Of a stretch of DNA of 64,000 nucleotides, positions 27,315 through 47,964 are shown one piece after another (positions within the stretch are counted from its first letter, which is position 1; each line of letters opens with the position of its first letter). Below the pieces are notes generated by a model. The model was not told where the DNA came from. It did no database searches and was given only the letters and a program-made list of their open reading frames with translations. A program made the translations under genes and the position numbers. This DNA comes from Candidatus Kuenenbacteria bacterium (GTDB taxonomy: Bacteria > Patescibacteriota > Patescibacteriia > UBA2196 > GWA2-42-15), in the NCBI GenBank assembly GCA_012797775.1, contig JAAZOM010000022.1:1241-65240 (forward strand), written 5' to 3'.

Positions 27315-27320
27315 ACATAA

Positions 27321-27445: not shown

Positions 27446-27455
27446 TTACATCACA

Positions 27456-30274: not shown

Positions 30275-30281
30275 TATTTTT

Positions 30282-31493: not shown

Positions 31494-31550
31494 AGTTGCT
31501 CTATTTTCTGCCCCATGTTATCCTAAAATCAAGAAGTTAAATTATAATTC

Positions 31551-32522: not shown

Positions 32523-32527
32523 GATAG

Positions 32528-33157: not shown

Positions 33158-33160
33158 ATT

Positions 33161-34195: not shown

Positions 34196-35138
34196 TTTTT
34201 AATGCCGCGTAAATTTTGGGCATTTTATTTTTCAAATAACCTTTCACCATTAAGTTCCTTTTTCGGCGGTAAAGCTCTTTGGCCTCTGCCGATTGTTTTG
34301 TGTTCAGTTGCTCTTTTTGTAGGAATTTCCTATATATCAGCCCATCAATTTTCAAAGCGCTTATCAAGTTTTTTATTTTTTTTGTTTTTTGGTTGCGCGC
34401 CTCATCGCGTTGCACCAATTCATCCCAGCCTATTTTGGCATAACTTTCATTTATTAATTCAAAAATAGATTTTAAATAACAAAGATGTTGCGCCTCGCTA
34501 TTGTTTCGCCCCAGAGAATTACCGTGGATACGGTGGCTCACCAAAAATTCTGGCACATTTGTTATTTGTTCCTCTTTTAAAAGTTTAACATATAAATTTA
34601 AATCTTGGGCGTACTTATATTCCTCATTATAATTGCCTATCTTGGCGATTTTGTCTTTACGGAAAAATATAGAGCTGTGCCAGATGCACGGTTTGCCAAA
34701 GATAAAATGAAACTTTATCAATTTTGTTTCTACTGGCGGCTGCCTCTTGGCCAGCATTTGGCCATTTTCGTCAATAATTTTTACCCAACTGCCCGTGAGC
34801 GCATATTTGGGGTTGCCTTCCATAAATTCATATTGTCTAGCCAGTCTTTCTGGCGCGGATAGGTCATCGGCATCGAGCCTGACAATATATTCACCTTGTG
34901 CCTCCCTGATTCCGACATTGAGAGACTTGGTTAGCCCCAAATTATATGTATTGTGAATTAATCTGATTCTCTTATCTTGTTTAGCGTAATTTTCGATTAT
35001 TTCCTTAGTTTTATCAGTCGAGGCATCATTAATTATAATAAATTCAAAATCAGTGAAAGTCTGGTTCAAAATACTCTCAATTGCTTCTGGTAAATATTTT
35101 TCCGCGTTATAAGCGGACAGCAAGACCGATACTTTCAT
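34146..35138 (-). CDS. Glycosyltransferase family 2.
   Basis: VSVLLSAYNAEKYL, NDASTD and RLDADD. Confidence 0.7.
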   Translation of the reverse strand: MKVSVLLSAYNAEKYLPEAIESILNQTFTDFEFIIINDASTDKTKEIIENYAKQDKRIRLIHNTYNLGLTKSLNVGIREAQGEYIVRLDADDLSAPERLARQYEFMEGNPKYALTGSWVKIIDENGQMLAKRQPPVETKLIKFHFIFGKPCIWHSSIFFRKDKIAKIGNYNEEYKYAQDLNLYVKLLKEEQITNVPEFLVSHRIHGNSLGRNNSEAQHLCYLKSIFELINESYAKIGWDELVQRDEARNQKTKKIKNLISALKIDGLIYRKFLQKEQLNTKQSAEAKELYRRKRNLMVKGYLKNKMPKIYAALKNEPRDPSPAELNAGSG

Positions 35139-35150
35139 AAAATTTTTATT

Positions 35151-36461
35151 TTAGGCCATGGCCTGTAGTTCCTCGTCTTCAGTATACAAAATCTCTAACC
35201 CCTCAATTACCGGCGTGTCTTTATATTGTTTATTAAAGCCATCAAAAAATGCTTTTATCATTTCCAGTTTAATCCGGTAATTTTCTTTATTGTCGGTCGC
35301 CTTTAGGTGCGCCCGCTGACTGCTTTTACAATAAGCACACAGAGGATTCATCTGGCCGTCTCGTGCATTGACTGTCTGCCGCAGATATTGCAAAACCGGA
35401 TGTTGCCAGATTTTATCAAATTCAACTTGGCCATATTTTTCAATATGTTTTTGGTAATTGAAGATAAAAGGATTAAAAACATTACAGCAACCCAGATAAT
35501 ATGAGTCCTGATGTGAATAACAAGAGCGTAGTTGTAATCCGACCCAAGGCGCATTGCAGGCGGTTGCCTTTCTGTCTTTATCTTCTCCTGGCTTCCTGTC
35601 TTTTTCTTTTTGGAAATATGGCGGCTCTTTGGGCAAAGCGGCAATCACTCCCTGCTCTTTGGCATAATTATAAAGGCGATCTATTTTTTTATTAATCTCA
35701 TCCACTTCGTCGTCTCGGACGATTATCTCCTTGAGGGCATGATTATAATCATGATAATGGTAAAGGCCAAAGAAATCTATTTTAAATTTTTTTATTAGAT
35801 CAATCATTTTGACCGCTTCATCTATATTGGCCTTATTCAAAGCATAAACCACGGTAATACGGGGTTTTTTATAATTACCATCCATTTTCTTTTTGGCGAG
35901 AGACACCAGATTGCCGATGACTGTTTCAAAGTCACCAGCCTGCAAGATTTTATAAGTTTCCGGCGTCGCCGCATGGATAGAAAAAGTTATGGCGTCAAAA
36001 CCGATTTTTAGCATGGTATCCTGTATTTTTTCATTTAGCCCCATGCCGTTAGTAGACATGCCCAAATCCAGCTTGTGTTTCAATTTTAAATAACCAATTA
36101 TTTCCTTGAAATGAGGGTTTAATACGGACTCACCAATAAAACCCATAAAATTTATACTGCCAGCCTTATCAAAGATTTTATCAAACGCCTTTATTTGTTC
36201 CGGCGTTATATTATTAGCCACCCTTTCAATATTTTTTTCTCTCAGGTTGTGAACCGAGCAGATCGGGCAGAGTAAATTACAGCAATTGCTCAAGCTCATG
36301 GTAATTTTCGTCGGCTGGCCCTTGGGATTTTTTTTGTTTTTTCCCGCCTCTGCCAAGGCCAACATCTTGTTCAATTTTTTCTTTTTACTTGGTAGCACCA
36401 AAGAAGCCATCGCGTTTATCGGCTGTGTCGAGACGATCTTCTTGATATTCTTTTTAATCAT
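35151..36461 (-). CDS. Radical SAM protein with a C-terminal Cys-rich SPASM-like domain.
   Basis: CNLLCPICS (CX3CX2C), a TIM-barrel core, and C-terminal CNAPW..SC..GCCN..CAYC. Confidence 0.55.
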   Translation of the reverse strand: MIKKNIKKIVSTQPINAMASLVLPSKKKKLNKMLALAEAGKNKKNPKGQPTKITMSLSNCCNLLCPICSVHNLREKNIERVANNITPEQIKAFDKIFDKAGSINFMGFIGESVLNPHFKEIIGYLKLKHKLDLGMSTNGMGLNEKIQDTMLKIGFDAITFSIHAATPETYKILQAGDFETVIGNLVSLAKKKMDGNYKKPRITVVYALNKANIDEAVKMIDLIKKFKIDFFGLYHYHDYNHALKEIIVRDDEVDEINKKIDRLYNYAKEQGVIAALPKEPPYFQKEKDRKPGEDKDRKATACNAPWVGLQLRSCYSHQDSYYLGCCNVFNPFIFNYQKHIEKYGQVEFDKIWQHPVLQYLRQTVNARDGQMNPLCAYCKSSQRAHLKATDNKENYRIKLEMIKAFFDGFNKQYKDTPVIEGLEILYTEDEELQAMA

Positions 36462-37201
36462 AATCCGTTTGCTTTAATTTTTTTAATCAGCCATTTCCGG
36501 CTCCGCAATTTTAGATCGCGGTCATGCAAACGCACAAAGTCTTCGTCCTGAATAAATTCAATGCCCACCATTTGCTTATTACTATCAAGCATATAGCGGT
36601 TCGCTATTACCTTTTTGATATTTGTTTCCTTGAGCGCCTCATAGGTTTTTATACTCCAGACATTGCCCGAGGGTACAAAGATTTCTATGCTTCTCCCAAA
36701 ATAATTTTCTAATATTTTTTGTGATTCTAAAATATGTTCGCGATGCAAAGAGCTTGGCAAGTCTGGCCAGAACTCGCGGTGCATTTTTCTATTGGAATAT
36801 CGGGAATAGGGGAGATGATTACCCACAACGCAATGCGTCAATCCGTGGTTAGCAATGGTTATGAGTTCCTTATCGGCGGCCTGTTTCAACATTGCTGCTT
36901 CGGCCGGGAATTTCTCAGGAAAAGGTGTTAAATTTGAATTTTCATCTACCCAAGTTGCCGCTATAGAGACAATCGGCACAATGCCATTATCCTCAAAAAT
37001 TTTTAAATATTTTCTCCAATCTTCTGCTGTTAGCTCTTCATATTTTGCCCAGCCGCGGAAGGGCCAGACTCTTTTTAAAAATCCATAATTAGCCCAAGGA
37101 AAATAAAAATAAGTTATCCCGCGCCAGGTAAAACTTTTTTTGCCCCATTGGTTATAATATTTGGTCGATGCGCCGATGTCATCAATGCGCCATTGTTTCA
37201 T
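36458..37201 (-). CDS. Putative polysaccharide deacetylase-like protein (DUF2334/CE4-like).
   Basis: RIDDIGAS and IANHGLTHC motifs. Confidence 0.35.
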   Translation of the reverse strand: MKQWRIDDIGASTKYYNQWGKKSFTWRGITYFYFPWANYGFLKRVWPFRGWAKYEELTAEDWRKYLKIFEDNGIVPIVSIAATWVDENSNLTPFPEKFPAEAAMLKQAADKELITIANHGLTHCVVGNHLPYSRYSNRKMHREFWPDLPSSLHREHILESQKILENYFGRSIEIFVPSGNVWSIKTYEALKETNIKKVIANRYMLDSNKQMVGIEFIQDEDFVRLHDRDLKLRSRKWLIKKIKANGL

Positions 37202-38901
37202 TTGGTCAAAATTATAAATAATCCGCTATAATACTGGTCTTGTTTTTTATCCAGCTTCAACATTCTTATCAGTAAAAGCCAAGGTAGAAAAAAAAGATAA
37301 TAACCTATCTTGCGTTTTAATACAGAACCGCCCTGGGCCGATTTCCTTTTTGTCATATCCCAGATAGCCGTATGACTGTTGCCAAAGGTTGTTATTTCTA
37401 CCTTATCAAAACCGCTTTCTTTAAAAACCTTTTCTGCAAATTTTTTTGTCGGCCTTAGGTTGTCATCGTGCTCATTGCTAAAAAAGGGGATACTCAAAAG
37501 TGCTGCACCGCCAGGTTTTATTAAACGATACATTTCTCTTGTTGCTTTAGGGAAATCATTTAAGTATTCCACCACCTCCAAGCACAAAATAGAATCAAAA
37601 TAATTATCAGGGTAATTCAACCCCTTCTCAATATCTCCATATAAAACATTTGCTTCCTTGTTCTCTTCTAGGTCAATAGCTACCATTTCTTCGGCCTTTA
37701 TTATTTGGTCATAGCGCCTGTTTTTTGAGCCGATATCCAATACTCGCCCTTGGAGCAGCCAGATATTTTTTAAAAGCAATTTTTCTAGAGCATTACGATG
37801 CCAGGTAAATTTATAATAGCGGTAAATCATCTTCTTCGCCGCTTTTATTTTTTGGATAAAATTTTTCATTATCAATATTTTATTAAAAACAAACAAAGTT
37901 ATTTTTGTTCTATAGAGTAAAATTTTATTAATTTTTTTACGCTTACCGTCGGTTAGTCGTTCTATTTTATTAATATATTTATAGGCTATCGTTTGAATGG
38001 TTTCATATTTTATGTCCCCGACATAAGCTTGGTATTCCCGACTGATCAATTCTATTTTTTCTATCAGTTCTTTTTCATTGGTAAACAACTCGCCACCTTT
38101 TTGTACTATTTCTCCATTACCGCCACTATTTAGTGCTGCTACTGGCAAGCCGCAAGCCAGTGCCTCTATTATCGCGTTGGAGCAAGCGTCGTCTTTAGTC
38201 GCTGTAATATAAATATCACGTTCTTTAAGTTTATCAGCCAATTTTTCGCTTGTCAGCGGAGGGATAATTTTTATATTTTTAAAATGAACGGGACAATTTC
38301 CCACAAAAGACATTTCATAGCGCGACCAGTCCAGATTTTTGTCCAAGTATTCATAAAACTCAAAGCCTTTTTTTATGTTGCCCGACCAACTGCTGGCGAT
38401 CAATTTTGTTTTTTGCGAATTATGATTTGGCCTATTATCAGTATTAAAAATTTTTGGGTCAACCGCATTGCCGATAATACTATATCTCTTACTATTAAAT
38501 CCCAGTTTTTTTGATTCTTCGTACAGCCAGCCTGAAACAAAAATAGCCCAATCAGGTAATTTACTCGCCACCCCATTCATCAGGCGATCTAAAATAGCCC
38601 ACTCCTTCCCTTTATGATAGCCAAGGATCCCCCCCAGACGGTGAATAAATATTTTATTCGGATATTTTAACTTCAGCTCTACTACCTCCGGCAGTTTTTG
38701 ATAGCTATAAAATATAATACATTCAGCCTTTTCTGTTTCTTCCTCATATATCCCCAAATTAATAAATTCATCCCTCAAGACTTTTAGGAATTGATTGGCG
38801 CCGCCCCAGGGGCCGTCTTTAAAATCGTATAATATTTTAATCTTTAAATTGCTGTTCATAATATTTTTTGTAAAAACCTTTTTTATCCAAAAGCTCCTCA
38901 T
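37198..38901 (-). CDS. Bifunctional GT-B glycosyltransferase (N-terminal) fused to a class I SAM methyltransferase (C-terminal).
   Basis: N-terminal IIEALACGLPVAALNSGGNGEIV; C-terminal VLDIGSKNRRYD..LCLEVVEYL..LIKPGG. Confidence 0.55.
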   Translation of the reverse strand: MRSFWIKKVFTKNIMNSNLKIKILYDFKDGPWGGANQFLKVLRDEFINLGIYEEETEKAECIIFYSYQKLPEVVELKLKYPNKIFIHRLGGILGYHKGKEWAILDRLMNGVASKLPDWAIFVSGWLYEESKKLGFNSKRYSIIGNAVDPKIFNTDNRPNHNSQKTKLIASSWSGNIKKGFEFYEYLDKNLDWSRYEMSFVGNCPVHFKNIKIIPPLTSEKLADKLKERDIYITATKDDACSNAIIEALACGLPVAALNSGGNGEIVQKGGELFTNEKELIEKIELISREYQAYVGDIKYETIQTIAYKYINKIERLTDGKRKKINKILLYRTKITLFVFNKILIMKNFIQKIKAAKKMIYRYYKFTWHRNALEKLLLKNIWLLQGRVLDIGSKNRRYDQIIKAEEMVAIDLEENKEANVLYGDIEKGLNYPDNYFDSILCLEVVEYLNDFPKATREMYRLIKPGGAALLSIPFFSNEHDDNLRPTKKFAEKVFKESGFDKVEITTFGNSHTAIWDMTKRKSAQGGSVLKRKIGYYLFFLPWLLLIRMLKLDKKQDQYYSGLFIILTK

Positions 38902-40657
38902 GGGTTCCTTGTTCTAATATTTTACCATCTACTACCACGACGATATTGTCAGCGCTTTTGATGGTTGATAGGCGGTGAGCGATTGCCACCACCGTCTTTC
39001 CAGCCAAAACTTTCTCCAGCGAAGCTTGTATGGCCTTTTCTGTTTCTGTATCCAAAGAGCTGGTCGCTTCATCCAAAATCAAAAGTTCCGGATCTCTGAT
39101 AATTGCCCGAGCAATAGCAATTCTTTGTTTTTGGCCGCCAGAAAGACGTGCTCCTTTTTCTCCAACTATTGTTTCGTATTTTTGGGGCAGGGTCTCTATA
39201 AAATCATCTATTTGGGCTACCTTTGCGGCGCGCATAATATCCTCTTTGTTGGCTCCCCAGCAACCATAGGCGATATTGTTGGCAATAGTGTCATTAAATA
39301 TCACGATGTCTTGAGAAATATAACCCAGATGTTCTCTCCAAGTTTTAGTATTCACTTCTTTCATGTCAGTTTTGTCAACAAAAATTTGACCGCCCGTCGG
39401 CATTATTAGCCCGGATATTATATTCGCCAGAGTGGTTTTTCCTGACCCTGTCGGGCCGACTAGGGCAGTGATTTTGCCCTTGGGTATCACCAGATTGATT
39501 GATTCTAAAACATTATTCTCTTCCTCATATCTCAAATTAATATCTTTCAAGACAATCTCTTTTTCTAGTTTTGTGATTTTTTGATTTCCATTCCAAGCTT
39601 TTTCTTTTTGTGCCTCTCTGATTATGGCCTCATAGGCCTTATAGGGTTCCATCAACTGGAACATCCTTGCTACTGCCCGCAAGCTGGCGTTGGCCTCGTT
39701 AAACATTTTTAGAAAGATATAGAAATAAGTTATCAAAACCGGCACATAAAAAGTTATATTTAAACCCCATATTTTTGTTACAAAAGTAAAAATACTGACT
39801 AGAGCGGTCATAACGGCAACCTCTGATAGGGGAGCAATTATTGCCTCATAGCTTTCATACTTATAGTCAAGATCGGCCATTGAATTGGATATTTGGTAAA
39901 AATTTTTTCTTTCATATTCTTCAGCTGTAAAAATTTTGACAGATTTTATATTACCCAACTTTTCTATCAATTGGCTATGAAGAATCGCTGACTCTTTGGT
40001 GGCCTGCATGCTAACCTTCTTGACCTTGGCGAATAAATTTTTTATCGGGATGGTTATGACTGCTTCCAAAATTATTGCCATCAGGGTAAATTTCCAAGAA
40101 ACAAAAACAAGTAAAATCAAATAAATTATTATTTTACTCACCTTTGAGATCATTTCTAAGAGTGTAAAATAAAAGCTAACTATTGATTTTGTAAAAATAG
40201 ATATACTTGTCACCAAATTGCCAGCCTTCATCTTATTTGCGAATTGTAAATTAGCCTCCGATGATGCTTCAAACATTTCATATTGCAAATCACGCCTAAT
40301 ACAAGAACTTACCCGGCTGATGGTTATTGTTTTTAGATAAGTAAAAAAACTTTTTAGCACGATCATCCCCAAAGCAAAAAACATTAATTTTAATACAATA
40401 TCTGTTTTATCTCCGGTAAAGAAATGCCCCCAAAATTTTTCTAGAAATGGTATTGTTGCTTGTGCGCTGGAAGACGGATCGATTATACTCTGAAAAAAAG
40501 GAATCATTGTACCCAAGCTAAAACCCTCGAAAATTGATGCCAGTACACTAAAAACAATAGACAAGGCAGTCAATTTTTTGTATTTTTTGAGTTTGCCGTA
40601 GGCCTTTTTAAAATATTCCTGCCTTTCTGGTGTAAAATATTTCATATTTAATCCCAA
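38837..40657 (-). CDS. ABC half-transporter exporter with fused TMD and NBD, MsbA/PglK-like (the start is likely the ATG at 40645).
   Basis: Six N-terminal TM helices, Walker A GPTGSGKTT, signature LSGGQKQRIAIARA and Walker B ILDEATS. Confidence 0.75.
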   Translation of the reverse strand: MGLNMKYFTPERQEYFKKAYGKLKKYKKLTALSIVFSVLASIFEGFSLGTMIPFFQSIIDPSSSAQATIPFLEKFWGHFFTGDKTDIVLKLMFFALGMIVLKSFFTYLKTITISRVSSCIRRDLQYEMFEASSEANLQFANKMKAGNLVTSISIFTKSIVSFYFTLLEMISKVSKIIIYLILLVFVSWKFTLMAIILEAVITIPIKNLFAKVKKVSMQATKESAILHSQLIEKLGNIKSVKIFTAEEYERKNFYQISNSMADLDYKYESYEAIIAPLSEVAVMTALVSIFTFVTKIWGLNITFYVPVLITYFYIFLKMFNEANASLRAVARMFQLMEPYKAYEAIIREAQKEKAWNGNQKITKLEKEIVLKDINLRYEEENNVLESINLVIPKGKITALVGPTGSGKTTLANIISGLIMPTGGQIFVDKTDMKEVNTKTWREHLGYISQDIVIFNDTIANNIAYGCWGANKEDIMRAAKVAQIDDFIETLPQKYETIVGEKGARLSGGQKQRIAIARAIIRDPELLILDEATSSLDTETEKAIQASLEKVLAGKTVVAIAHRLSTIKSADNIVVVVDGKILEQGTHEELLDKKGFYKKYYEQQFKD

Positions 40658-42348
40658 TTAAAATAAATATTTTTAATTTTTTCTTTTTTAATTCTGTCTT
40701 TTAGCTGGTCCATTTTTACACGCATCTCAGGAATTCTCTTGCCGTGTCCTTCAACCAAAAGCCATTTAATTTTTTTTATTGCCCCACTATCTATCAAGCT
40801 TGTTATTATTTCACACTCTACGCCCTCAACATCCATTTTAACCAACTTTATCTCTCGCCCCAGACTATTTATAAACCCTGACAGGTCAATCAACCCCACT
40901 ACTATATAATCTTTTGGGTTTATATTTCCCTTGTATTCAAGTAAGGAAGAGCCAATAGACCATTTTACCTGATCCTCACTGGCGTTTTTGTGTAGATATA
41001 GCGGCATGGTTGTATTTTGGGTATAAACTCCTTTGTTTATACAATGTACCTTGTTGCTGCCGGGGAATTTTTTTGATAATTCTCCAAAGGCGTAGGGGTT
41101 TGGCTCAAAAGCATAAACCTCAGCTCCCTTATCCATCATCATTTTTGTATACTTTCCGATATTCGCGCCGCAATCGATTGCCGTATCACCAGGCTTTAAT
41201 TTATTTAAGTAAAAAAGACCATCGCGTATCTCTCTGCCAATAATAAAATATATTTTGTATTTCCACTTCAAAAAAGTAGGATATTTATTCAACCGGCCGA
41301 TTAGTGTTGCTAAAATTTTTTTTTGTTTCATTTTGTTGAGCTTACTTATTAAATCTTGATATTTTTTTATATAATTATTTTTATTGAGCATTGCCGCGGC
41401 CCTCTCATAATTTTCATTGATATATTCTAAATCCTTGGCTTGCCTATGTTCATTTTTTACCCAATCAATTATTTTATTAATACTTGTCTCATTATAAATT
41501 AAATCTTCATGTATAAAATCTTGCGCTAAGCCGACATCGGTCGAAAAAATCATCGTTCTGGTGAGAGCCGCTTGTAAAATCGCCTTTGGCCCCCCCTCGC
41601 TTTTTGAACTGACAATACACAAGTCAATCAAATTATACAATAAATTAATGGTTTCTTCTGGCAGATTATTGATCAAAATATCATCCTCTTTATTTTCGAT
41701 ATAGTTATAGTCACCCACAAAAATAAAGGGGATATCGTATTTTTGGCATTCACTGATCACATAATGTCTCCGTGGCCCGGCCAGAACCAGCATTATTTTT
41801 TCTTTGGGCAGCAAGCGCAATATTTTTATCAGCAAGTCCGGGTCCTTTTGCCACTTTGGTGCCAATAAATTATTACCCAAGGAATCTCGCTGAAAAGTGC
41901 CAATTAAAATACGGTTGGCTATTTTGTTTTTATCTATTTTTAATATTTCGCAAATTTTTTCTTTGCTCTCTTTTAGCGGTTTGTATATCTCCGGCGAGAC
42001 ATAAAAGGGGATTTGGCTATACGAACAGCCCTCGTTTTTTAGGAAGTTAGAAATTTTTTCATTCGGCGAGATCCAATAATCAATTAATTTTTTTGCTTGC
42101 TGATAATTCTCCAGATTGTTGGTCACCACCGCCACTGTTTTTCTACCAAGCAGCTTGCGCCAAAAAAATAAGAATATTTTATTAATAGAAACTATTTGGG
42201 CATACCAGACAAAAAATAAAATATCCGCCCGACTATATTTTTCTACTAGTTCAACCCCGGGTATTTTTTTTAGGAAATACTCGGCATTTTTTCTGTCCTT
42301 ATCTATCGACCAGCCGACTCCATCTGTGCCAATTAATTTTATTTTCAT
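40648..42348 (-). CDS. Two-domain protein: N-terminal glycosyltransferase-like domain fused to a C-terminal FkbM-family methyltransferase.
   Basis: C-terminal DCGANIGKYT..AFEPNP..KMDVEG (FkbM). Confidence 0.5.
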   Translation of the reverse strand: MKIKLIGTDGVGWSIDKDRKNAEYFLKKIPGVELVEKYSRADILFFVWYAQIVSINKIFLFFWRKLLGRKTVAVVTNNLENYQQAKKLIDYWISPNEKISNFLKNEGCSYSQIPFYVSPEIYKPLKESKEKICEILKIDKNKIANRILIGTFQRDSLGNNLLAPKWQKDPDLLIKILRLLPKEKIMLVLAGPRRHYVISECQKYDIPFIFVGDYNYIENKEDDILINNLPEETINLLYNLIDLCIVSSKSEGGPKAILQAALTRTMIFSTDVGLAQDFIHEDLIYNETSINKIIDWVKNEHRQAKDLEYINENYERAAAMLNKNNYIKKYQDLISKLNKMKQKKILATLIGRLNKYPTFLKWKYKIYFIIGREIRDGLFYLNKLKPGDTAIDCGANIGKYTKMMMDKGAEVYAFEPNPYAFGELSKKFPGSNKVHCINKGVYTQNTTMPLYLHKNASEDQVKWSIGSSLLEYKGNINPKDYIVVGLIDLSGFINSLGREIKLVKMDVEGVECEIITSLIDSGAIKKIKWLLVEGHGKRIPEMRVKMDQLKDRIKKEKIKNIYFNWD

Positions 42349-42351
42349 ATT

Positions 42352-43086
42352 TTACTCATGTTCAATTACGCCCCACCATTCACCCCAGTTGATTTGGTAA
42401 TTTTTTATTTTCCAGCCGCTTTCTTTTAGTTCCTTTTCAATTTCCTCAACAGTATATTCTGTTTCATGTGTCGGGTCTAGCCGGTATTCAAAACCCATCA
42501 ATTTTTTATAAACAGTCAGCCAGTCGCGGCTGATCATGGGTACACGCAAAAGTAATATTGGGGCAATTTTTTTCATATTTTTTAGTAGCTCGCGGCGCTC
42601 CCGGATATGTTCTAATACATTTGATAATACTACCTTGTCAAATTTCTCTTGGGGCTCATACTCATTCAGATCAGCCACCAAAAATTTCAAATTATCTTTT
42701 TTATATTTATTCCTAGCCTCTTCTATGCTTTTAGAATTAAAATCCACCCCCAGTACATATTTTGCTTTTTGGGCGATTTTCATAGCCACCAAACCCGTGC
42801 CCGACCCAGCATCTAGCACCCTATCATTCGGCTCAATGTTGTCCAGAAAAAACTGGTGGTATTTAATTATGCCATGCTTGGGGTGGATTCCCTTATTCAA
42901 GCTGACGGCCAGCTCTGATATTTTCTCATAGGCCCTGTTATGCTGGTCTATGTATTTGCCCAAGAGTTTTATTTTTTTCTTTTCCGTCAAAGATCTGGCC
43001 TTGATTGCTGACAGAGCCACAGTTAAAGTTTTTTTGAGCCCTCGTTGTTTTAAATTATTTTTAATTTTTACTAATAAGTTTTTCAT
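42352..43086 (-). CDS. Class I SAM-dependent methyltransferase.
   Basis: VLDAGSGTGL..GVDFN..LSNVLEH. Confidence 0.6.
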   Translation of the reverse strand: MKNLLVKIKNNLKQRGLKKTLTVALSAIKARSLTEKKKIKLLGKYIDQHNRAYEKISELAVSLNKGIHPKHGIIKYHQFFLDNIEPNDRVLDAGSGTGLVAMKIAQKAKYVLGVDFNSKSIEEARNKYKKDNLKFLVADLNEYEPQEKFDKVVLSNVLEHIRERRELLKNMKKIAPILLLRVPMISRDWLTVYKKLMGFEYRLDPTHETEYTVEEIEKELKESGWKIKNYQINWGEWWGVIEHE

Positions 43087-44209
43087 AAATATTTATTTCC
43101 TTATTAATCTGGGTTTTTAGTGAAAAATTATCAACCACAAACCGTCTGGCACTTTCTCCCAGCTTTCTCTGTCGATCATCATCATTGATTATTGATAATA
43201 TTTTTTTGCGTATATCTTCAAAATTATTTTCTGTGAGTAGCCCCGTCTCTCCATCTTTGATTATTTCTTTTGTGCCTTCCACCCTCGTTCCAATACAGGC
43301 GAGACCCATACTCATTGCTTCCAAAAGTGATTTTGGCATCCCTTCATAAAGCGATGGCAAAACATAAATTTTATATTTATTTAATAATTTTGGCAATTCG
43401 TCATTCGGTCGCCGGCCAGTGAAGGTTAATTCTACCTTCAGCCCCTCGGCCAACCTTTCTAATTCTTTTTTTAATAATTCACTTTTTTCATCCATTGGGC
43501 CGCCGATTATATCTAGGGCGATATCCGTACCCTCGAGTGCCCTTATTAAAGTATTCAGATTTTTTTGTTCTTCAATTTTGCCAGAATAGGTGATTCTTCG
43601 GTCGTGTTTATCGCTGGTTTCTGGTGCAAATTTATCCGTATCAATATAATTGGCGATTACTTCTATTTTCTCGGGTTTAATTTTATATTTCTCTAGTAAA
43701 TATTGCCGATCACCTTCCGAGGTCACCAGCGCCGCATCGGCCAGAGCGTAGGCAATTCTTTCCCACCAGATTATTTTTTTATCCGCCTTGCCCTTTTGCT
43801 TCACCTGAAAAAGCGACTGCGTCCAACCAGTTCGGAGTATTAATTTACCCCTTGGTTTTATGATTTTAGCAACTAACGCTGCCCGGGCTTTTAACTGATT
43901 TGTTTTCCAGAAATTGCACTCCCTAACTTTTTTCCAATTTAAAAAAGGCAAAAGCCAGCGGTAATCCCTGGCTCTCATGCGCCATTTTTTGTAAACAATT
44001 TCAATGTTCGGCGCCAGATACTTGGCATAGTGCAACTCTTCCCGACCATCGTAAGTGAATAAATAAATTTTTTTAAAATATTGCGCCAGAATATTATAAG
44101 GCGCTATTTCTCTTGTCAGTATACCCGCCTTATCCCAATTTTTTAGGCTCATCTTTTCTGTCAAAAAAAATCCCAAAATTTTTTCCTTTAGCTTAGCACT
44201 ATTATTCAT
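43061..44209 (-). CDS. Glycosyltransferase family 4.
   Basis: EGMPKSLLEAMSMGLACIGTRV..ETGLL. Confidence 0.65.
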   Translation of the reverse strand: MNNSAKLKEKILGFFLTEKMSLKNWDKAGILTREIAPYNILAQYFKKIYLFTYDGREELHYAKYLAPNIEIVYKKWRMRARDYRWLLPFLNWKKVRECNFWKTNQLKARAALVAKIIKPRGKLILRTGWTQSLFQVKQKGKADKKIIWWERIAYALADAALVTSEGDRQYLLEKYKIKPEKIEVIANYIDTDKFAPETSDKHDRRITYSGKIEEQKNLNTLIRALEGTDIALDIIGGPMDEKSELLKKELERLAEGLKVELTFTGRRPNDELPKLLNKYKIYVLPSLYEGMPKSLLEAMSMGLACIGTRVEGTKEIIKDGETGLLTENNFEDIRKKILSIINDDDRQRKLGESARRFVVDNFSLKTQINKEINIYEKLISKN

Positions 44210-44234
44210 AATTCTTTATTCTTAATTCATCGTC

Positions 44235-45686
44235 CTATTGTCCGCCGCCGGTCAATACTGTTTTTACAGTTTTTAAAATAATAGAAATATCCAAAACTAG
44301 CGACCTATTTTTTATATAATAAAGGTCATATTGCAATTTTTCCCAGGCATCTTTTTCCGAAGCCCCGTAGGGGAAATTAATCTGCGCCCAGCCAGTTAGC
44401 CCCGGTTTGACCAAGAGGCGCGTCTCGTAAAAGGGGATTACTTCTTTCAGTTTTTCAATAAACTCCGGCCGCTCGGGCCTTGGTCCGATAAAACTCATTT
44501 CGCCGCGAAGAATATTTACCAGCTGTGGGATCTCATCGATTCTCGATTTTCTGAGGAAGCGGCCAATTCTTGTTACTCGTGGGTCATTTTTTTGTGCCCA
44601 TTGCGGTCCGTTTTTTTCTGCCTCCACTACCATTGTTCTAAATTTAACCGCCATAAATTTTTTGCCGTTTTTACCAGTTCGCTGTTGCATAAAGAAACCT
44701 GGGCCCTCGCTAGTCGCTCTTATTGTAAAATATATTATTGGCAAAAATGGTATTGAGATAAAAAGCATGATTAAAGACAAAACAAAGTCCGCCACCCTTT
44801 TTTGGGTTTCATAAATTCTCTTGTTTGCTTCTTTGATATTTTCCAAAAACCATAGTTGCCCAATGGTATTTATCAATATTTTACCAGTAAATTGTTCTGC
44901 AAACTTTGAGAAGTCCCAGATAGTTATTTTTTGTGATAGTAGTTTATAAAGCTGACTGATTACTTCTGGCCGGTATTCTTGACTGTTGGCTATTATAATT
45001 ATTCTGATCTTATTATCATTGATAAATTTTTCCAGTTTTTCTTCTCCTTCTAAAAATTCAAGTTTCTCTCCATTATCAGAGAGTGGTGTATCAGGGGGTG
45101 GCGTGCTATTGTCTTTGGATTTAAATATCGCGGCTACCTTTATGCCCATTTGGGGCTTATTATTTATTTCTCGGGCTAAATTTAAAGATTCTTCCGACAA
45201 GCCGATAATCAGAGCCTTCTCTAAAAATTTTTTATTAACAATTATAGTATTAAAAAATCTCCGCCAAGCAATAATCAGTGTGCCAAAGATTATTATATCC
45301 AAAACCAAGATTGTTTTCGGGGTAATGCCCGTAGTGGTTATATAAAAGAAAGCGAAACCAATCATGGCGCACCAGATTATATTTTTTATCATCAGGGCAT
45401 AAAATCTAAAATTATTTCTAGCTGTTTCTAGATCATATAGCTTATTAATAAAAAATATTACAATCCAGAGTAAAAAAACAAGAGAAAAAGGCAGCCAGTG
45501 CTTGGCCCAAGTTTCGTTATCCACTGCTTTTTGAAAGCGCAAAAACAGGGTTAACCACAAAGAAAAATAGAGAATAATTATATCTCCGATGAACAAAACC
45601 AACCGCTTGATTTTAGAAGCGACACTAATCATATCTTGGGTTATTATATTTGTTTTTATTATAGTAAAAATCAGGCTTTTTTTCAA
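44235..45686 (-). CDS. Polyprenyl-phosphate hexose-1-phosphate transferase (WbaP/PglC-type bacterial sugar transferase), the initiating enzyme.
   Basis: C-terminal Bac_transf domain: KRVADFVLSL...MVVEAEKNGPQWAQKNDPRVTRIGRFLRKSRIDEIPQL..GEMSFIGPRPERPEF. Confidence 0.8.
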   Translation of the reverse strand: MKKSLIFTIIKTNIITQDMISVASKIKRLVLFIGDIIILYFSLWLTLFLRFQKAVDNETWAKHWLPFSLVFLLWIVIFFINKLYDLETARNNFRFYALMIKNIIWCAMIGFAFFYITTTGITPKTILVLDIIIFGTLIIAWRRFFNTIIVNKKFLEKALIIGLSEESLNLAREINNKPQMGIKVAAIFKSKDNSTPPPDTPLSDNGEKLEFLEGEEKLEKFINDNKIRIIIIANSQEYRPEVISQLYKLLSQKITIWDFSKFAEQFTGKILINTIGQLWFLENIKEANKRIYETQKRVADFVLSLIMLFISIPFLPIIYFTIRATSEGPGFFMQQRTGKNGKKFMAVKFRTMVVEAEKNGPQWAQKNDPRVTRIGRFLRKSRIDEIPQLVNILRGEMSFIGPRPERPEFIEKLKEVIPFYETRLLVKPGLTGWAQINFPYGASEKDAWEKLQYDLYYIKNRSLVLDISIILKTVKTVLTGGGQ

Positions 45687-45742
45687 GCGCTCGGCTATTC
45701 TTGTTTTATTAACCTTTATATTATAAAATAAAGTTAATAACT

Positions 45743-47962: not shown

Positions 47963-47964
47963 TT

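What the first reader, a model, noticed from the sequence alone, without database searches (positions are those of the whole stretch)
37198..42348. Two glycosyltransferase-methyltransferase fusion proteins flanking the ABC exporter.
37198-38901 is a GT-B domain fused to a class I SAM methyltransferase. 40648-42348 is a GT-like N-terminal domain fused to an FkbM-family methyltransferase. Between them sits the MsbA/PglK-like exporter. In ABC-transporter-dependent O-antigen systems (E. coli O8/O9a WbdD), non-reducing-end methylation is the chain-terminating export signal. A GT-MT fusion next to the exporter suggests an analogous add-last-sugar-and-cap step, here coupled to a different exporter architecture: a fused half-transporter rather than Wzm/Wzt. 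The cluster holds at least nine methyltransferase domains in total, which predicts a heavily methylated glycan.
Basis: inference. Interest (0 to 1): 0.5.

Follow-up and report, generated by a model that had tools for sequence, protein, structure and literature searches.

The report
Sugar-adding, methylating fusion enzymes flanking exporter
Two genuine two-in-one enzymes (one half adds a sugar, the other adds a methyl group) sit on either side of a membrane exporter in a surface-sugar operon of a tiny-celled Kuenenbacteria genome. They are fused versions of a gene cassette that is widespread in bacteria and archaea, so this is a new variant of a known kind of pathway, not a new mechanism.

Summary
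37198-38859(-) encodes a GT-B glycosyltransferase joined to a class I SAM methyltransferase. 40648-42348(-) encodes a second GT-B joined to an FkbM methyltransferase. A 602-aa MsbA/PglK/HepA-like fused ABC exporter (38837-40645) lies between them and has no room for a carbohydrate-binding module. Neither fusion is an assembly artefact: identical proteins occur on 5-6 independently assembled contigs, and orthologues at 57-73% identity are also fused.

Both are derived forms of a widespread, uncharacterised cassette, GT4 / MT / GT_P3 / GT_P1 / MT (/ CE4-like DUF2334), whose genes are normally separate. The cassette occurs with Wzx, Wzm/Wzt or MsbA-like exporters. A sister Kuenenbacterium lacks the FkbM part altogether, and in another relative it is a separate gene.

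Most likely these are add-a-sugar-and-methylate-it modules. They would build a heavily methylated polyprenol-linked glycan that the ABC exporter flips whole and a Wzy_C-TPR protein transfers or polymerises, as in Gram-positive S-layer glycan clusters.

In Patescibacteria the exporter gene repeatedly overlaps the GT_P1 gene, and the two are fused in one Uhrbacteria lineage. Close FkbM relatives are fused to Wzt-CBM subunits. I count seven clear methyltransferase domains, not nine.

The parts
44235..45686 (-). Initiating polyprenyl-phosphate glycosylphosphotransferase (WbaP/WcaJ-like). First gene of the operon.
   Evidence: Pfam Bac_transf 228 bits plus CoA_binding_3. NCBIfam EPS_sugtrans 392 bits, above the 295.6 cut-off. 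Five predicted TM segments.
43061..44209 (-). GT4 glycosyltransferase ('GT4up'). Conserved first member of the cassette.
   Evidence: Glycos_transf_1 117 bits. Full-length relatives lie next to MT244 and GT_P3 in 41 of 80 related loci.
42352..43086 (-). Stand-alone class I SAM methyltransferase ('MT244'). Conserved partner placed just before GT_P3.
   Evidence: Methyltransf_25/23/31/11, 55-59 bits. Relatives occur in 39 of 80 loci, typically directly upstream of GT_P3.
41332..42348 (-). GT_P3 domain (aa 1-339) of the GT_P3-FkbM fusion. GT-B, GT4-like.
   Evidence: Glycos_transf_1 31.7 bits. Hundreds of stand-alone 330-350-aa homologues at 40-54% identity cover only this part. AF2 gives a high-confidence GT-B, and the top Foldseek hits are MshA, HepE, SenB and BshA. 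Family motifs are WSIDKDR, GSFQRDS, PKWQKNP, LAGPRRHY and SEGGPKA.
40651..41331 (-). FkbM methyltransferase domain (aa 340-566) of the GT_P3-FkbM fusion. The stop codon is 40648-40650.
   Evidence: PF05050 50 bits; TIGR01444 72 bits, above its cut-off. DCGANxG, FEP, KxDxEGxE and VExH are conserved. The junction reads '...SKLNK|MKQKK...'. In relative L012 the same position holds TAA, 2 nt, then the ATG of a separate FkbM gene.
38837..40645 (-). Fused TMD-NBD ABC exporter (MsbA/PglK/HepA-like half-transporter). Candidate flippase for the lipid-linked glycan.
   Evidence: ABC_membrane plus ABC_tran. HepA_fam_ABC 495 bits, MsbA 409 and PglK 253, all below equivalog cut-offs, with full-length coverage. 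Walker A GPTGSGKTT, signature LSGGQKQR and Walker B LLILDEATSSLD. No Wzx/MOP family was detected anywhere in the window.
37855..38859 (-). GT_P1 domain (about aa 1-335) of the GT_P1-MT11v fusion. GT-B, GT4-like. Its start overlaps the end of the ABC gene by 23 nt.
   Evidence: Glycos_transf_1 and Glyco_trans_1_4, 30-33 bits. Stand-alone homologues of about 335 aa. At least 583 genome loci encode a relative. AF2 pLDDT above 94; Foldseek hits BshA, PglA, MshA, ManT, WsaF and HepE. All 22 invariant family residues are present.
37201..37854 (-). MT11v domain (about aa 336-553). A class I SAM methyltransferase with a variant glycine loop and a hydrophobic helix before the last strand. The stop codon is 37198-37200.
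   Evidence: Methyltransf_11 44.8 bits, matching profile positions 28-94 only. Invariant D375, G377, R381, D396, D409 and E428 in 11 fused homologues. Stand-alone 204-208-aa homologues at 44-51% identity lie directly after a GT_P1 gene in the two contexts fetched. The Arcobacter stand-alone MT matches with BLASTP E=2e-12. AF2 gives a seven-stranded Rossmann fold.
36458..37201 (-). DUF2334 / CE4-like putative deacetylase. Third member of the GT_P1 / MT11v / DUF2334 triad.
   Evidence: DUF2334 35.5 bits and Polysacc_deac_1 22.5 bits. It follows the MT in 17 of 80 loci. RIDD, HGLTH, HREF, GNVW and HD motifs are conserved.
35151..36461 (-). Radical SAM enzyme (SPASM/twitch-like) within the operon. 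Role in the glycan unknown.
   Evidence: Radical_SAM 57.5 bits. Best NCBIfam hits are far below cut-off. Conserved in L001, L005 and L010.
34146..35138 (-). GT2 glycosyltransferase.
   Evidence: Glycos_transf_2 146 bits.
33161..34195 (-). Conserved 344-aa protein with no family match. Soluble.
   Evidence: No Pfam or NCBIfam hit even at E<=1. No predicted TM segment. Conserved in L001, L005 and L010.
32528..33157 (-). Class I methyltransferase. Last gene of the minus-strand operon and variable between relatives.
   Evidence: Methyltransf_11/25, 48-49 bits. Absent from the same position in L010 and L005.
45743..47962 (+). Wzy_C (O-antigen ligase/polymerase superfamily) membrane protein with a C-terminal TPR domain, transcribed divergently. 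Candidate O-oligosaccharyltransferase, ligase or polymerase.
   Evidence: Wzy_C 74 bits plus TPR. About 12 TM segments. TPR at 584-708 and a weak WaaL (7tpg) match. Same position in L005 and L010.
51748..52905 (+). S-adenosylmethionine synthetase (MetK) at the edge of the cluster. Supplies the methyl donor.
   Evidence: All three S-AdoMet_synt domains, 126-229 bits. Conserved position in L001 and L010.

Best explanation
The two ORFs are genuine bifunctional enzymes. They lie in a tightly packed 11-gene minus-strand operon (45686 to 32528) of a Candidatus Kuenenbacteria (Patescibacteria) genome. The operon builds a heavily methylated glycan on a polyprenol carrier.

Each ORF joins a retaining-type GT-B (GT4-like) glycosyltransferase to a SAM methyltransferase. 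In most organisms that methyltransferase is a separate neighbouring gene. The fusions therefore mark glycosyltransferase/methyltransferase pairs that act on the same residue: add a sugar, then methylate it or its acceptor.

Proposed sequence (all inferred):
1. The WbaP-like phosphotransferase primes the lipid.
2. GT4up, GT_P3, GT_P1 and the GT2 enzymes extend the glycan on the cytoplasmic face.
3. MT244, FkbM and MT11v methylate it, and the CE4-like DUF2334 enzyme and the radical SAM enzyme tailor it.
4. The homodimeric MsbA/PglK/HepA-like ABC exporter flips the finished lipid-linked glycan as a whole.
5. The Wzy_C-TPR membrane protein transfers it to a surface acceptor or polymerises it.

This matches Gram-positive S-layer glycan (slg) clusters and the PglK/Wzk routes. 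On this reading the methyl groups are mainly decorations of the glycan, not a demonstrated export signal.

Shown: the domain identities, the reality of the fusions, their split ancestry, and the conserved cassette and its export partners. Inferred: the order of action, the substrates, flipping by the ABC protein, and the final acceptor.
For: - Domains and folds.
- The fusions are real.
- Split ancestry of GT_P1-MT11v. Stand-alone 204-208-aa MT11v homologues exist and lie directly after a GT_P1 gene in the two contexts fetched. The Arcobacter arrangement is MT / GT_P3 / GT_P1, and its MT is homologous to the fused domain.
- Split ancestry of GT_P3-FkbM. The FkbM gene is separate in L012 and absent from the sister Kuenenbacterium.
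- Cassette statistics over the 80 best of at least 583 loci: MT11v in 51 (37 directly downstream), GT_P3 in 51 (46 directly upstream), MT244 in 39, GT4up in 41, DUF2334 in 17. True GT_P1-MT11v fusions occur in only 2.
- The cassette is indifferent to export route: Wzx in L004 and L008, a Wzm/Wzt-like pair in L007, and MsbA-like ABC in Patescibacteria.
- The exporter covers the HepA and MsbA profiles end to end, so it has no carbohydrate-binding module. No Wzx family is detected in the window.
- Catalytic motifs are conserved in both methyltransferases and in DUF2334.
- slg-like context: a PGT, RmlD above its cut-off, an AsnB homologue, Wzy_C plus TPR, and a GT-MT gene overlapping the transporter gene. 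These compare with WsaP, rml, WsfA, WsfB and wsaE in PMC2943079.
- PglK-type ABC flippases move whole lipid-linked glycans with relaxed specificity (Wzk; PMC2841628).
- At least 11 glycosyltransferases and 7-8 methyltransferases in the window argue for a complex, multiply methylated glycan.
Against: - There are no biochemical or structural glycan data, so the order of glycosyltransferase action and the methylated positions are unknown.
- The exporter gene is repeatedly adjacent to or overlapping GT_P1 in Patescibacteria, and the two are fused in one Uhrbacteria lineage. That suggests a more specific link between GT_P1 and export than simple co-transcription.
- Close FkbM relatives are fused to Wzt subunits, some with a detectable carbohydrate-binding module. 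This is what a cap-writing enzyme would look like.
- The window GT_P3 has Gln where 35 of 36 family members have the second Glu of the EX7E-like motif, so its activity is not assured.
- MT11v lacks the canonical GxGxG loop.
- Two large polytopic proteins with no family match (22497-24485 and 7777-9498) could be alternative flippases or polymerases.
- The Wzy_C protein could be a polymerase rather than a transferase.
Confidence: 0.55

Rival explanations
1. One or both fusions add the last sugar and methylate it. The methyl cap stops chain growth and marks the glycan as ready for export, as with WbdD or WsaE, but here coupled to an MsbA/PglK-type exporter instead of Wzm/Wzt-CBM.
For: - The exporter gene lies immediately upstream of GT_P1, mostly overlapping it, in 8 of 80 loci from several Patescibacteria classes. 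It overlaps by 23 nt in the window.
- A GT_P1::ABC fusion of 948 aa occurs in Uhrbacteria on 8 contigs.
- In this lineage the FkbM gene was inserted exactly between GT_P3 and the exporter.
- Close FkbM relatives are fused to Wzt nucleotide-binding subunits, three with a detectable Wzt_C module. The one context fetched is Wzm / Wzt-CBM-FkbM / GT4.
- WsaE is a precedent: its methyltransferase domain caps an S-layer rhamnan, and its gene overlaps wzt.
Against: - The exporter has no carbohydrate-binding module or other extra domain to read a cap.
- There is no long coiled-coil ruler. Such a ruler is characteristic of the known terminators (PMC11231755).
- The sister Kuenenbacterium uses an orthologous exporter without any FkbM.
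- The Uhrbacteria GT_P1::ABC locus has no MT11v.
- The same cassette sits in Wzx/Wzy-type and Wzx-containing loci, where no terminator is needed.
- PglK/Wzk-type flippases have relaxed substrate specificity.
- The many glycosyltransferases and methyltransferases argue against methylation being only terminal.
Confidence: 0.22
2. A variant in chemistry. The GT_P1 / MT11v / DUF2334 triad adds an N-acetyl-hexosamine. The CE4-like enzyme then removes the acetyl group and MT11v N-methylates the free amine, as NodB and NodS do in Nod-factor synthesis. On this reading MT11v is not an O-methyltransferase.
For: - DUF2334 follows MT11v or GT_P1 in 17 of 80 loci, and in the window the genes overlap by 4 nt.
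- The CE4-type metal and catalytic motifs RIDD and HGLTH are conserved.
- The best PDB sequence matches of the MT domain are phosphoethanolamine N-methyltransferases, at E=8e-5.
- The basic SKNR loop that replaces GxGxG is family-specific.
Against: - Of the 51 loci with MT11v, most (at least 34) have no DUF2334.
- The PDB similarity is generic to Methyltransf_11 (13-15% identity in Foldseek).
- The donor sugar of GT_P1 is unknown.
- The NodB/NodS analogy is recalled from established knowledge and was not tested here.
Confidence: 0.12
3. The ABC protein is not the glycan flippase. It would export something else, such as a lipid, peptide or drug, and sit in the operon by chance. Flipping would be done by one of the unassigned polytopic proteins.
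For: - It scores below the equivalog cut-offs for HepA, MsbA and PglK.
- Two polytopic proteins with no family match lie in the window.
Against: - Its position between cassette genes is conserved in at least three related species.
- It is adjacent to GT_P1 in other Patescibacteria classes and fused to GT_P1 in Uhrbacteria.
- Its best family match is HepA, an exporter associated with envelope polysaccharide.
Confidence: 0.05
4. The fusions are sequencing or assembly artefacts, that is, frameshift-merged neighbouring genes.
For: In relative L012 the GT_P3 and FkbM parts are separate ORFs in different frames.
Against: - Identical fused proteins occur on 5-6 contigs from independent runs.
- A second species at 70-73% identity has both fusions.
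- GT_P1-MT11v is fused in 11 proteins down to 36% identity, including a Chloroflexota one.
- The L012 split is a clean TAA-nn-ATG junction, not a frameshift inside a domain.
Confidence: 0.01

Closest known systems
WsaE and the S-layer glycan (slg) clusters of Geobacillus stearothermophilus NRS 2004/3a and Paenibacillus alvei (PMC2943079)
   Same: - A multidomain glycosyltransferase-methyltransferase whose gene overlaps the ABC transporter gene.
- A WbaP/WsaP-type initiating transferase.
- rml genes.
- An asparagine-synthase homologue, like WsfA.
- A Wzy_C protein with a C-terminal TPR, like the O-oligosaccharyltransferase WsfB.
- The host is inferred from general knowledge of Patescibacteria to lack an outer membrane (not tested here), so the glycan is probably not a classical LPS O antigen.
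   Different: - WsaE has an N-terminal methyltransferase plus two rhamnosyltransferase domains. Here a single GT-B comes first and the methyltransferase is C-terminal, and there are two different fusions.
- The slg transporter is Wzm/Wzt. Here it is a fused MsbA/PglK-like half-transporter.
- Sequence homology to WsaE was not tested.
WbdD (E. coli O8/O9a, K. pneumoniae O3/O5) and K. pneumoniae O7 ORF6 chain terminators (PMC11231755)
   Same: - SAM methyltransferase activity is tied to glycan assembly in an ABC-exporter pathway.
- O7 ORF6 also carries a methyltransferase and glycosyltransferase modules in one polypeptide.
   Different: - Those terminators have a long coiled-coil ruler, often a kinase, and a cognate Wzt with a carbohydrate-binding module that reads the cap.
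- None of these three features is present here.
PglK (Campylobacter) and Wzk (Helicobacter pylori) ABC flippases (PMC2841628)
   Same: - A fused TMD-NBD half-transporter encoded with glycan-assembly genes.
- It would flip a complete undecaprenyl-PP-linked glycan for a Wzy_C-family ligase or an oligosaccharyltransferase.
- It has no carbohydrate-binding module.
   Different: - Only 253 bits to the PglK equivalog model, whose cut-off is 1000.
- The gene overlaps, and in one lineage is fused to, a specific glycosyltransferase. This is not described for PglK or Wzk in the one Wzk paper read, where only the abstract was consulted, nor to my knowledge.
HepA-family ABC exporter of the cyanobacterial heterocyst envelope polysaccharide island
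   Same: - It is the best-scoring NCBIfam family for the exporter, at 495 bits over the full length.
- HepE-like GT4 folds are among the top structural matches for both glycosyltransferase domains.
- The phosphotransferase has a weak HepC match.
   Different: - The score is below the 725-bit equivalog cut-off.
- The phylum and envelope are different.
- To my knowledge, no methyltransferase fusions are described in the hep island.
Wzt-CBM-FkbM fusion proteins
   Same: The FkbM domain belongs to the same close subfamily, at 36-49% identity, and is joined to a glycan-export component.
   Different: - There the methyltransferase is fused to the exporter's nucleotide-binding subunit, with a detectable Wzt_C module in P0262 and P0263 and in none of the others, in a Wzm/Wzt system.
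- Here it is fused to a glycosyltransferase next to a different class of exporter.

Membership tests
FkbM-family methyltransferase (PF05050 / TIGR01444) | Profile score above the curated cut-off | tested here: met
   PF05050 50.0 bits against 22.7; TIGR01444 72.2 bits against 37.7, over aa 389-548.
FkbM-family methyltransferase (PF05050 / TIGR01444) | Conserved SAM-binding and catalytic motifs (DxGANxG, FEP, KxDxEGxE) | tested here: met
   IDCGANIG, YAFEPNP, KMDVEGVE and VEGH align with columns at least 90% conserved in 31 homologues.
Class I SAM-dependent methyltransferase (Methyltransf_11-like) | Profile score above the gathering threshold, and a seven-stranded Rossmann-like fold | tested here: met
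   PF08241 44.8 bits against 21.2. The AF2 model has the strand order expected of class I, at pLDDT above 90. Foldseek and phmmer match phosphoethanolamine N-methyltransferases.
Class I SAM-dependent methyltransferase (Methyltransf_11-like) | Glycine-rich E/DxGxGxG SAM loop after strand 1 | tested here: inconclusive
   The loop reads VLDIGSKNRRY. Only the first Gly is kept, but LD(I/V)G(S/G)(K/R)xR is conserved in all 11 fused homologues, and the stand-alone Arcobacter methyltransferase has a related VLDVGGKK loop. D396 (end of strand 2), D409 and E428 are invariant in the 11 fused homologues. It is a conserved variant rather than decay. SAM binding was not tested.
GT-B glycosyltransferase, GT4-like (retaining) | Two-Rossmann GT-B fold with a Glycos_transf_1 C-terminal half | tested here: met
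   Both proteins score above the PF00534 gathering threshold: 30.2 and 31.7 bits against 26.4. Both AF2 models match GT4 structures (BshA, MshA, PglA, HepE, WaaG, ManT, WsaF) with Foldseek E values of 1e-9 to 1e-12.
GT-B glycosyltransferase, GT4-like (retaining) | EX7E-type acidic motif in the C-terminal domain | tested here: inconclusive
   GT_P1 has D224-x7-E232, with E232 invariant. GT_P3 has E251 invariant, but the window protein has Q259 where 35 of 36 relatives have Glu.
WbdD-type chain terminator | Extended coiled-coil molecular ruler with a membrane-anchoring C-terminus | tested here: not met
   The AF2 models show only a 39-residue linker helix (312-350) in one protein and helices 303-339 and 345-375 in the other. 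There is no long coiled coil. The feature is defined in PMC11231755.
WbdD-type chain terminator | Cognate Wzm/Wzt exporter whose nucleotide-binding subunit carries a cap-binding carbohydrate-binding module | tested here: not met
   The exporter is a fused ABC_membrane plus ABC_tran protein with no Wzt_C domain and no unaligned tail. No ABC2_membrane or Wzt_C hit was found in the window.
WbdD-type chain terminator | Methyl (or methylphosphate) placed on the non-reducing terminal sugar and required for export | not testable with these tools
   This needs the glycan structure and export assays with methyltransferase-dead mutants.
PglK/Wzk/MsbA-type (type IV) ABC exporter acting as lipid-linked glycan flippase | Single polypeptide with a six-helix ABC_membrane domain followed by an NBD with Walker A, signature and Walker B motifs | tested here: met
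   PF00664 70.8 bits and PF00005 124 bits. About 6 TM segments. GPTGSGKTT, LSGGQKQR and LLILDEATSSLD are present.
PglK/Wzk/MsbA-type (type IV) ABC exporter acting as lipid-linked glycan flippase | Equivalog-level match to a characterised flippase (PglK, MsbA or HepA) | tested here: not met
   HepA 495 against 725, MsbA 409 against 602, PglK 253 against 1000. It belongs to the superfamily but is not an orthologue of any named exporter.
PglK/Wzk/MsbA-type (type IV) ABC exporter acting as lipid-linked glycan flippase | Translocates a polyprenyl-PP-linked glycan | not testable with these tools
   Only genomic association supports this: the position within the cassette, the overlap with GT_P1 and the GT_P1::ABC fusion.
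WsaE-like multifunctional S-layer glycan enzyme / slg cluster | Methyltransferase and glycosyltransferase domains in one polypeptide, encoded next to the ABC transporter gene | tested here: met
   compare PMC2943079.
WsaE-like multifunctional S-layer glycan enzyme / slg cluster | WsaE architecture (N-terminal methyltransferase plus two rhamnosyltransferase domains) and sequence homology to WsaE | tested here: not met
   The architecture differs: a single N-terminal GT-B with a C-terminal methyltransferase. Sequence homology to WsaE could not be tested because no WsaE sequence was available in these tools.
WsaE-like multifunctional S-layer glycan enzyme / slg cluster | Wzy_C-family O-oligosaccharyltransferase with TPR, and a glycosylated S-layer or surface protein | tested here: inconclusive
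   A Wzy_C plus C-terminal TPR protein is present. Its activity (transferase, ligase or polymerase) and any acceptor protein are unknown.

The most novel reading that the evidence does not exclude
In Patescibacteria, the GT_P1 glycosyltransferase, with its tethered methyltransferase, may be physically docked to an MsbA/PglK-type ABC flippase. The genes are translationally coupled in many lineages and covalently fused in Uhrbacteria. On this reading the final sugar addition and methylation happen at the mouth of the transporter and gate export. That would be a functional equivalent of the Wzt-CBM 'read the cap, then export' checkpoint that needs no carbohydrate-binding module, in a different exporter class.
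Probability: 0.15. Interest if true: 0.65.

Novelty: new variant of a known kind. Interest (0 to 1): 0.4.

Why it matters
Almost nothing is known experimentally about the cell surfaces of Patescibacteria (CPR). These bacteria are thought to live attached to host cells, so their surface glycans are likely to matter for that contact.

This analysis shows three things:
- The two odd-looking fusions are the local form of an uncharacterised glycosyltransferase/methyltransferase cassette. At least 583 loci in the species-representative genome collection encode the GT_P1 glycosyltransferase, across bacteria and archaea including Asgard archaea, and most of the 80 examined carry cassette partner genes next to it.
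- The fusions act as 'Rosetta stone' evidence for which methyltransferase works with which glycosyltransferase.
- In Patescibacteria the cassette has recruited an MsbA/PglK-like exporter, and in one lineage has fused to it.

This yields concrete, testable enzyme pairs for making methylated glycans. It also yields a candidate case of glycosyltransferase-exporter coupling outside the well-studied Wzm/Wzt systems. It does not reveal a new principle. GT-MT fusions, PglK-type flippases and methyl-rich glycans are all known.

Tried and rejected
- BLASTP of the two fusion proteins against each other found no significant similarity (best E=1.0). The two GT domains are not recent paralogues, so I treated them as two families, GT_P1 and GT_P3.
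- A PDB sequence search with GT_P3-FkbM and with DUF2334 found nothing. With GT_P1-MT11v it gave only weak generic hits.
- Alignments A4 and A5, which mixed stand-alone FkbM proteins with the fusion, were misaligned: the FkbM-only rows were spread over the whole length. I discarded them. The second structure was predicted from A6 (fusions plus GT-only rows), which left the FkbM part with only three sequences and moderate confidence.
- My first count of 'MT11v in the same ORF' listed 8 loci. Six of them are genes that merely abut, at distance 0. The true fusions are L012 and L013 only.
- I tested whether the Arcobacter stand-alone MT corresponds to the 244-aa MT of the window. It does not (E=0.002 over 86 aa). 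It corresponds to the fused MT11v domain (E=2e-12).
- I looked for a Wzx/MOP flippase, a Wzm/Wzt pair or a Wzt_C carbohydrate-binding module in the window and found none. Five proteins without Pfam hits stayed unassigned even at E<=1.
- The frameshift-artefact explanation is rejected.
- I considered a WbdD-like ruler and rejected it, because no long coiled coil appears in either model.

Full report
**What is there**

The region lies in a minus-strand run of eleven tightly packed or overlapping ORFs from 45686 down to 32528. Pfam and NCBIfam assign them as follows.

| Coordinates | Assignment |
|---|---|
| 44235-45686 | WbaP/WcaJ-type polyprenyl-phosphate glycosylphosphotransferase; EPS_sugtrans 392 bits, above cut-off |
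| 43061-44209 | GT4 glycosyltransferase |
| 42352-43086 | 244-aa class I methyltransferase |
| 40648-42348 | First fusion of the finding |
| 38837-40645 | ABC exporter, 602 aa from its ATG |
| 37198-38859 | Second fusion of the finding |
| 36458-37201 | DUF2334 / polysaccharide-deacetylase-like protein |
| 35151-36461 | Radical SAM enzyme |
| 34146-35138 | GT2 glycosyltransferase |
| 33161-34195 | Conserved protein with no family match |
| 32528-33157 | Another class I methyltransferase |

A Wzy_C membrane protein with a C-terminal TPR domain (45743-47962) is transcribed divergently. After it come an S8 peptidase with FG-GAP repeats, GtrA, an epimerase and MetK. The plus-strand stretch 13937-32522 adds more cluster genes:
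- five more GT-B glycosyltransferases (GT4 or GT1), one GT2 and one PMT-like GT-C;
- RmlD, above its equivalog cut-off;
- an AsnB homologue;
- two further methyltransferases;
- a B12-binding radical SAM enzyme.

An RmlC-like protein (11179-11661) and a third methyltransferase (13218-13832, minus strand) lie just upstream of that stretch.

The organism is a Candidatus Kuenenbacteria bacterium (Patescibacteria). NCBI holds the two proteins as NMC51674.1 and NMC51676.1.

**Checking the observation**

- ORF 37198-38901 carries Glycos_transf_1 at aa 209-288 and Methyltransf_11/23/25 at aa 383-473.
- ORF 40648-42348 carries Glycos_transf_1 at aa 166-312 and FkbM at aa 392-548. TIGR01444 scores 72 bits against a cut-off of 37.7.
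- The first ORF most likely starts at 38859 (553 aa). Gene callers use that start and all fused homologues begin there. It then overlaps the end of the ABC gene by 23 nt.
- The exporter has ABC_membrane plus ABC_tran, with intact Walker A, signature and Walker B motifs.
- The exporter aligns end to end with the HepA-family (495 bits), MsbA (409) and PglK (253) models. All three scores are below equivalog cut-offs, and no residues are left over for a carbohydrate-binding module.

The fusions are not frameshift artefacts. The exact proteins occur on 5-6 contigs from independent sequencing runs. A second species at 70-73% identity has both fusions in the same arrangement. GT_P1-MT11v is fused in 11 proteins down to 36% identity, including one from Chloroflexota.

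AlphaFold2 models agree:
- The first fusion has pLDDT 94.4. It is a GT-B (aa 1 to about 305), then a 39-residue helix (312-350), then a seven-stranded Rossmann methyltransferase. A hydrophobic helix (513-533) precedes the last strand.
- The second has pLDDT 85. The GT-B is confident, the linker (340-380) is low-confidence, and the FkbM domain is moderate.
- Foldseek places both glycosyltransferase domains among retaining GT4 enzymes: BshA, MshA, PglA, HepE, WaaG, the methylmannose-polysaccharide mannosyltransferase and WsaF.

On the methyltransferase count, I find seven clear methyltransferase domains. There is also one B12-radical-SAM enzyme of the methylase type and one other radical SAM enzyme. 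'At least nine' is therefore generous.

**Are the methyltransferase domains intact?**

The FkbM domain has every family motif (IDCGANIG, FEPNP, KMDVEGVE, VEGH). These align with columns at least 90% conserved in 31 homologues.

The class I domain lacks the canonical GxGxG loop. It reads VLDIGSKNRRY, and the Pfam match begins only at profile position 28. However, LD(I/V)G(S/G)(K/R)xR is conserved across all 11 fused homologues, and the stand-alone Arcobacter methyltransferase has a related VLDVGGKK loop. The acidic residue at the end of strand 2 (D396), D409 and E428 are invariant in the fused set. It is a conserved variant, not a decayed domain. SAM binding remains untested.

**Where the fusions come from**

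Most homologues of either protein are stand-alone glycosyltransferases of about 330-350 aa. They cover only the N-terminal 55-60% of the query. The two GT domains are not detectably similar to each other, so I call them GT_P1 and GT_P3.

The methyltransferase half of the first fusion has stand-alone homologues of 204-208 aa at 44-51% identity. In the two contexts examined, the gene follows a GT_P1 gene directly, with overlapping stop and start codons, and is itself followed by a DUF2334 gene. In Arcobacter sp. CECT 8986 the order is MT / GT_P3 / GT_P1, and that methyltransferase is a homologue of the fused domain (BLASTP E=2e-12).

I scanned one genome per species with a GT_P1 profile and found at least 583 loci. 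I annotated the best 80 with custom HMMs.

| Neighbour of GT_P1 | Loci of 80 |
|---|---|
| MT11v | 51 (37 directly downstream) |
| GT_P3 | 51 (46 directly upstream) |
| 244-aa methyltransferase | 39 |
| Upstream GT4 | 41 |
| All four of the above | 22 |
| DUF2334 | 17 |
| True GT_P1-MT11v fusion | 2 |

The loci come from many Patescibacteria classes and from Asgard and other archaea. They also come from Dehalococcoidia, Desulfobacterales, Bacteroidales, Chlorobiota, Planctomycetota and other groups.

The window therefore shows a derived, fused form of a widespread, uncharacterised cassette: GT4 / MT / GT_P3 / GT_P1 / MT (/ CE4-like enzyme). The DUF2334 protein keeps a CE4-like RIDD and HGLTH metal and catalytic signature.

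The FkbM part is recent:
- The sister Kuenenbacterium (57% identity) has the same operon and exporter, but a 357-aa GT_P3 and no FkbM.
- In Patescibacteria MAG RA.bin79, FkbM is a separate gene: TAA, two bases, then ATG.
- In the window the junction reads ...SKLNK|MKQKK..., so the old start Met is now internal.

**The exporter link**

The cassette is indifferent to the export route:
- It sits in a Wzx/Wzy-type cluster in Arcobacter and next to a Wzx gene in another MAG.
- It sits with a Wzm/Wzt-like pair in L007, where a GT-C-like membrane protein occupies the slot between the two glycosyltransferases.
- It sits with an MsbA-like exporter in Patescibacteria.

An MsbA-like exporter lies within 4.4 kb of GT_P1 in 11 of the 80 loci. 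In 8 of them it is immediately upstream, mostly overlapping, and this holds across Paceibacterota, Liptonbacteria, Magasanikbacteria and Kuenenbacteria. In an Uhrbacteria lineage GT_P1 is fused in frame to a full TMD-NBD exporter. That protein is 948 aa and is seen on 8 contigs from three sources.

The FkbM domain gives a second link. I searched it against 1.84 billion cluster representatives. Most of the top 150 are stand-alone proteins of 200-240 aa. Among the longer ones I scanned with Pfam:
- six are Wzt-type nucleotide-binding subunits fused to FkbM, and two of these have a detectable Wzt_C carbohydrate-binding module;
- six are glycosyltransferase-FkbM fusions (GT2, GT4 or TOD1-like), besides this family's own P0121.

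One Wzt-CBM-FkbM gene sits in a textbook Wzm / Wzt / GT4 arrangement.

**How it most likely works**

The best-supported reading is an slg-like or PglK/Wzk-like route, as follows:
1. The phosphotransferase primes polyprenyl phosphate.
2. The GT4, GT_P3, GT_P1 and GT2 enzymes extend the glycan in the cytoplasm.
3. Each tethered or adjacent methyltransferase modifies the residue its partner glycosyltransferase handles.
4. DUF2334 and the radical SAM enzyme tailor the glycan further.
5. The ABC homodimer flips the finished lipid-linked glycan. It is the only recognisable flippase candidate in the 64 kb.
6. The Wzy_C-TPR protein transfers it to a surface acceptor or polymerises it.

The parallels with Gram-positive S-layer glycan clusters are close. 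Both have a WsaP-like primer, rml genes, an AsnB homologue (WsfA) and a Wzy_C plus TPR transferase (WsfB). Both also have a multifunctional MT-GT enzyme whose gene overlaps the transporter gene, WsaE (PMC2943079). Whole-glycan flipping by a PglK homologue with relaxed specificity is established for H. pylori Wzk (PMC2841628).

Only the gene content, domain identities, fusion history and associations are shown. The order of reactions, the substrates, the flipping and the acceptor are inferred.

It is partly supported. The exporter-GT_P1 coupling and the Wzt-CBM-FkbM relatives are what one would expect if these enzymes finish the glycan at the exporter. Several points count against it:
- Known terminators combine a coiled-coil ruler with a carbohydrate-binding module on Wzt that reads the cap (PMC11231755). 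Neither feature is present here.
- The sister species exports without FkbM.
- The Uhrbacteria fusion locus lacks MT11v.
- The cassette also works with Wzx.
- With at least 11 glycosyltransferases and 7-8 methyltransferases, methylation cannot be only terminal.

I put the decoration model at about 0.55 and the cap-signal model at about 0.22.

A chemistry variant gets about 0.12. In it, DUF2334 de-N-acetylates and MT11v then N-methylates, as NodB and NodS do. It rests on the conserved triad and weak similarity to N-methyltransferases, but most MT11v loci lack DUF2334.

**Novelty and verdict**

GT-MT fusions, PglK-type flippases in glycan clusters and methyl-rich glycans are all known, so this is a new variant of a known kind. 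The new elements are:
- two uncharacterised, very widespread GT4-like families with dedicated methyltransferase partners;
- the recruitment of an MsbA-like exporter in Patescibacteria;
- a natural GT::ABC-exporter fusion.

Interest is moderate (0.4). The most novel reading not excluded is export gated by a docked GT-MT without any carbohydrate-binding module. I give it a probability of about 0.15.

Noticed in passing
L061:10001-12847 (Candidatus Uhrbacteria MAG JAHFIQ010000001): A 948-aa ORF fuses a complete GT_P1 glycosyltransferase to a full ABC exporter (TMD plus NBD, with intact Walker A, signature and Walker B motifs). The exact protein is on 8 contigs from NCBI, Logan and ENA. I know of no described glycosyltransferase::type-IV ABC exporter fusion.
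   Followed up: partly
L092:1050-2909 and L093:1041-2900 (JGI metagenomes); proteins P0262, P0263, P0317, P0321, P0370, P0376: Wzt-type ABC nucleotide-binding subunits are fused at their C-terminus to an FkbM methyltransferase that is 36-49% identical to the window's domain. Pfam detects a Wzt_C carbohydrate-binding module in P0262 and P0263. The one context fetched is Wzm / Wzt-CBM-FkbM / GT4. This looks like a cap writer tethered to the cap reader.
   Followed up: partly
window 41572-41574 (codon for residue 259 of the 40648-42348 protein): The window's GT_P3 domain has Gln259 in SEGGPKAILQ. In 35 of 36 family members, including the 70-73% identical orthologues, this position is Glu, the second acidic residue of the EX7E-like motif. 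The glycosyltransferase half of the FkbM fusion may have altered or reduced activity.
   Followed up: partly
window 51748-52905: The SAM synthetase gene (MetK) sits at the edge of this methyltransferase-rich cluster. It is in the same place in related contigs (L001, L010), which fits a local supply of methyl donor.
   Followed up: partly
window 25349-27314: A B12-binding radical SAM enzyme (best NCBIfam match HpnJ-like at 202 bits, below cut-off; the family includes C- and P-methylases) is preceded by a small six-TM DUF6580 protein and overlaps it by 14 nt. This may be a C-methylation step with an associated membrane component. A Chloroflexota relative (L006) also has a B12-radical-SAM gene just upstream of its GT_P1-MT11v fusion.
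   Followed up: no
window 47965-50190: An S8 subtilase with FG-GAP repeats and an N-terminal hydrophobic segment always lies next to the Wzy_C-TPR gene (window, L005, L010). It could be a processing protease or a glycosylation target.
   Followed up: no
window 22497-24485 and 7777-9498: Two large polytopic membrane proteins (662 aa with about 14 TM segments; 573 aa with about 12) have no Pfam hit even at E<=1. They could be unrecognised GT-C enzymes, polymerases or flippases of the same glycan system.
   Followed up: partly
L085:12273-13853 and L009:2805-4394: A different fusion type lies directly after the GT_P1 / MT11v / DUF2334 triad in other Patescibacteria: an N-terminal class I methyltransferase plus a C-terminal GT2. 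MT-GT fusions of several architectures recur in these clusters.
   Followed up: no
L004:5813-6508 (Arcobacter sp. CECT 8986, PDKG01000002): A 231-aa protein-kinase-fold protein lies about 2 kb upstream of the MT / GT_P3 / GT_P1 cassette in a Wzx/Wzy-type cluster. It recalls the kinase half of WbdD-type terminators.
   Followed up: no
window 28000-48000: The glycan cluster has lower G+C (0.34-0.385) than the flanks (0.41-0.455), and a strongly negative GC skew over the minus-strand operon. Low G+C is typical of laterally exchanged surface-glycan loci.
   Followed up: no
L007:8537-9997 and L007:15008-16625: In one relative with a GT_P1-MT11v fusion, the slot between GT_P3 and GT_P1 holds a GT-C/EpsG-like protein of about 10 TM segments instead of the ABC exporter. 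A Wzm-like protein (283 aa) and an ABC_tran protein (252 aa, no carbohydrate-binding module) lie 3.4 kb downstream.
   Followed up: partly
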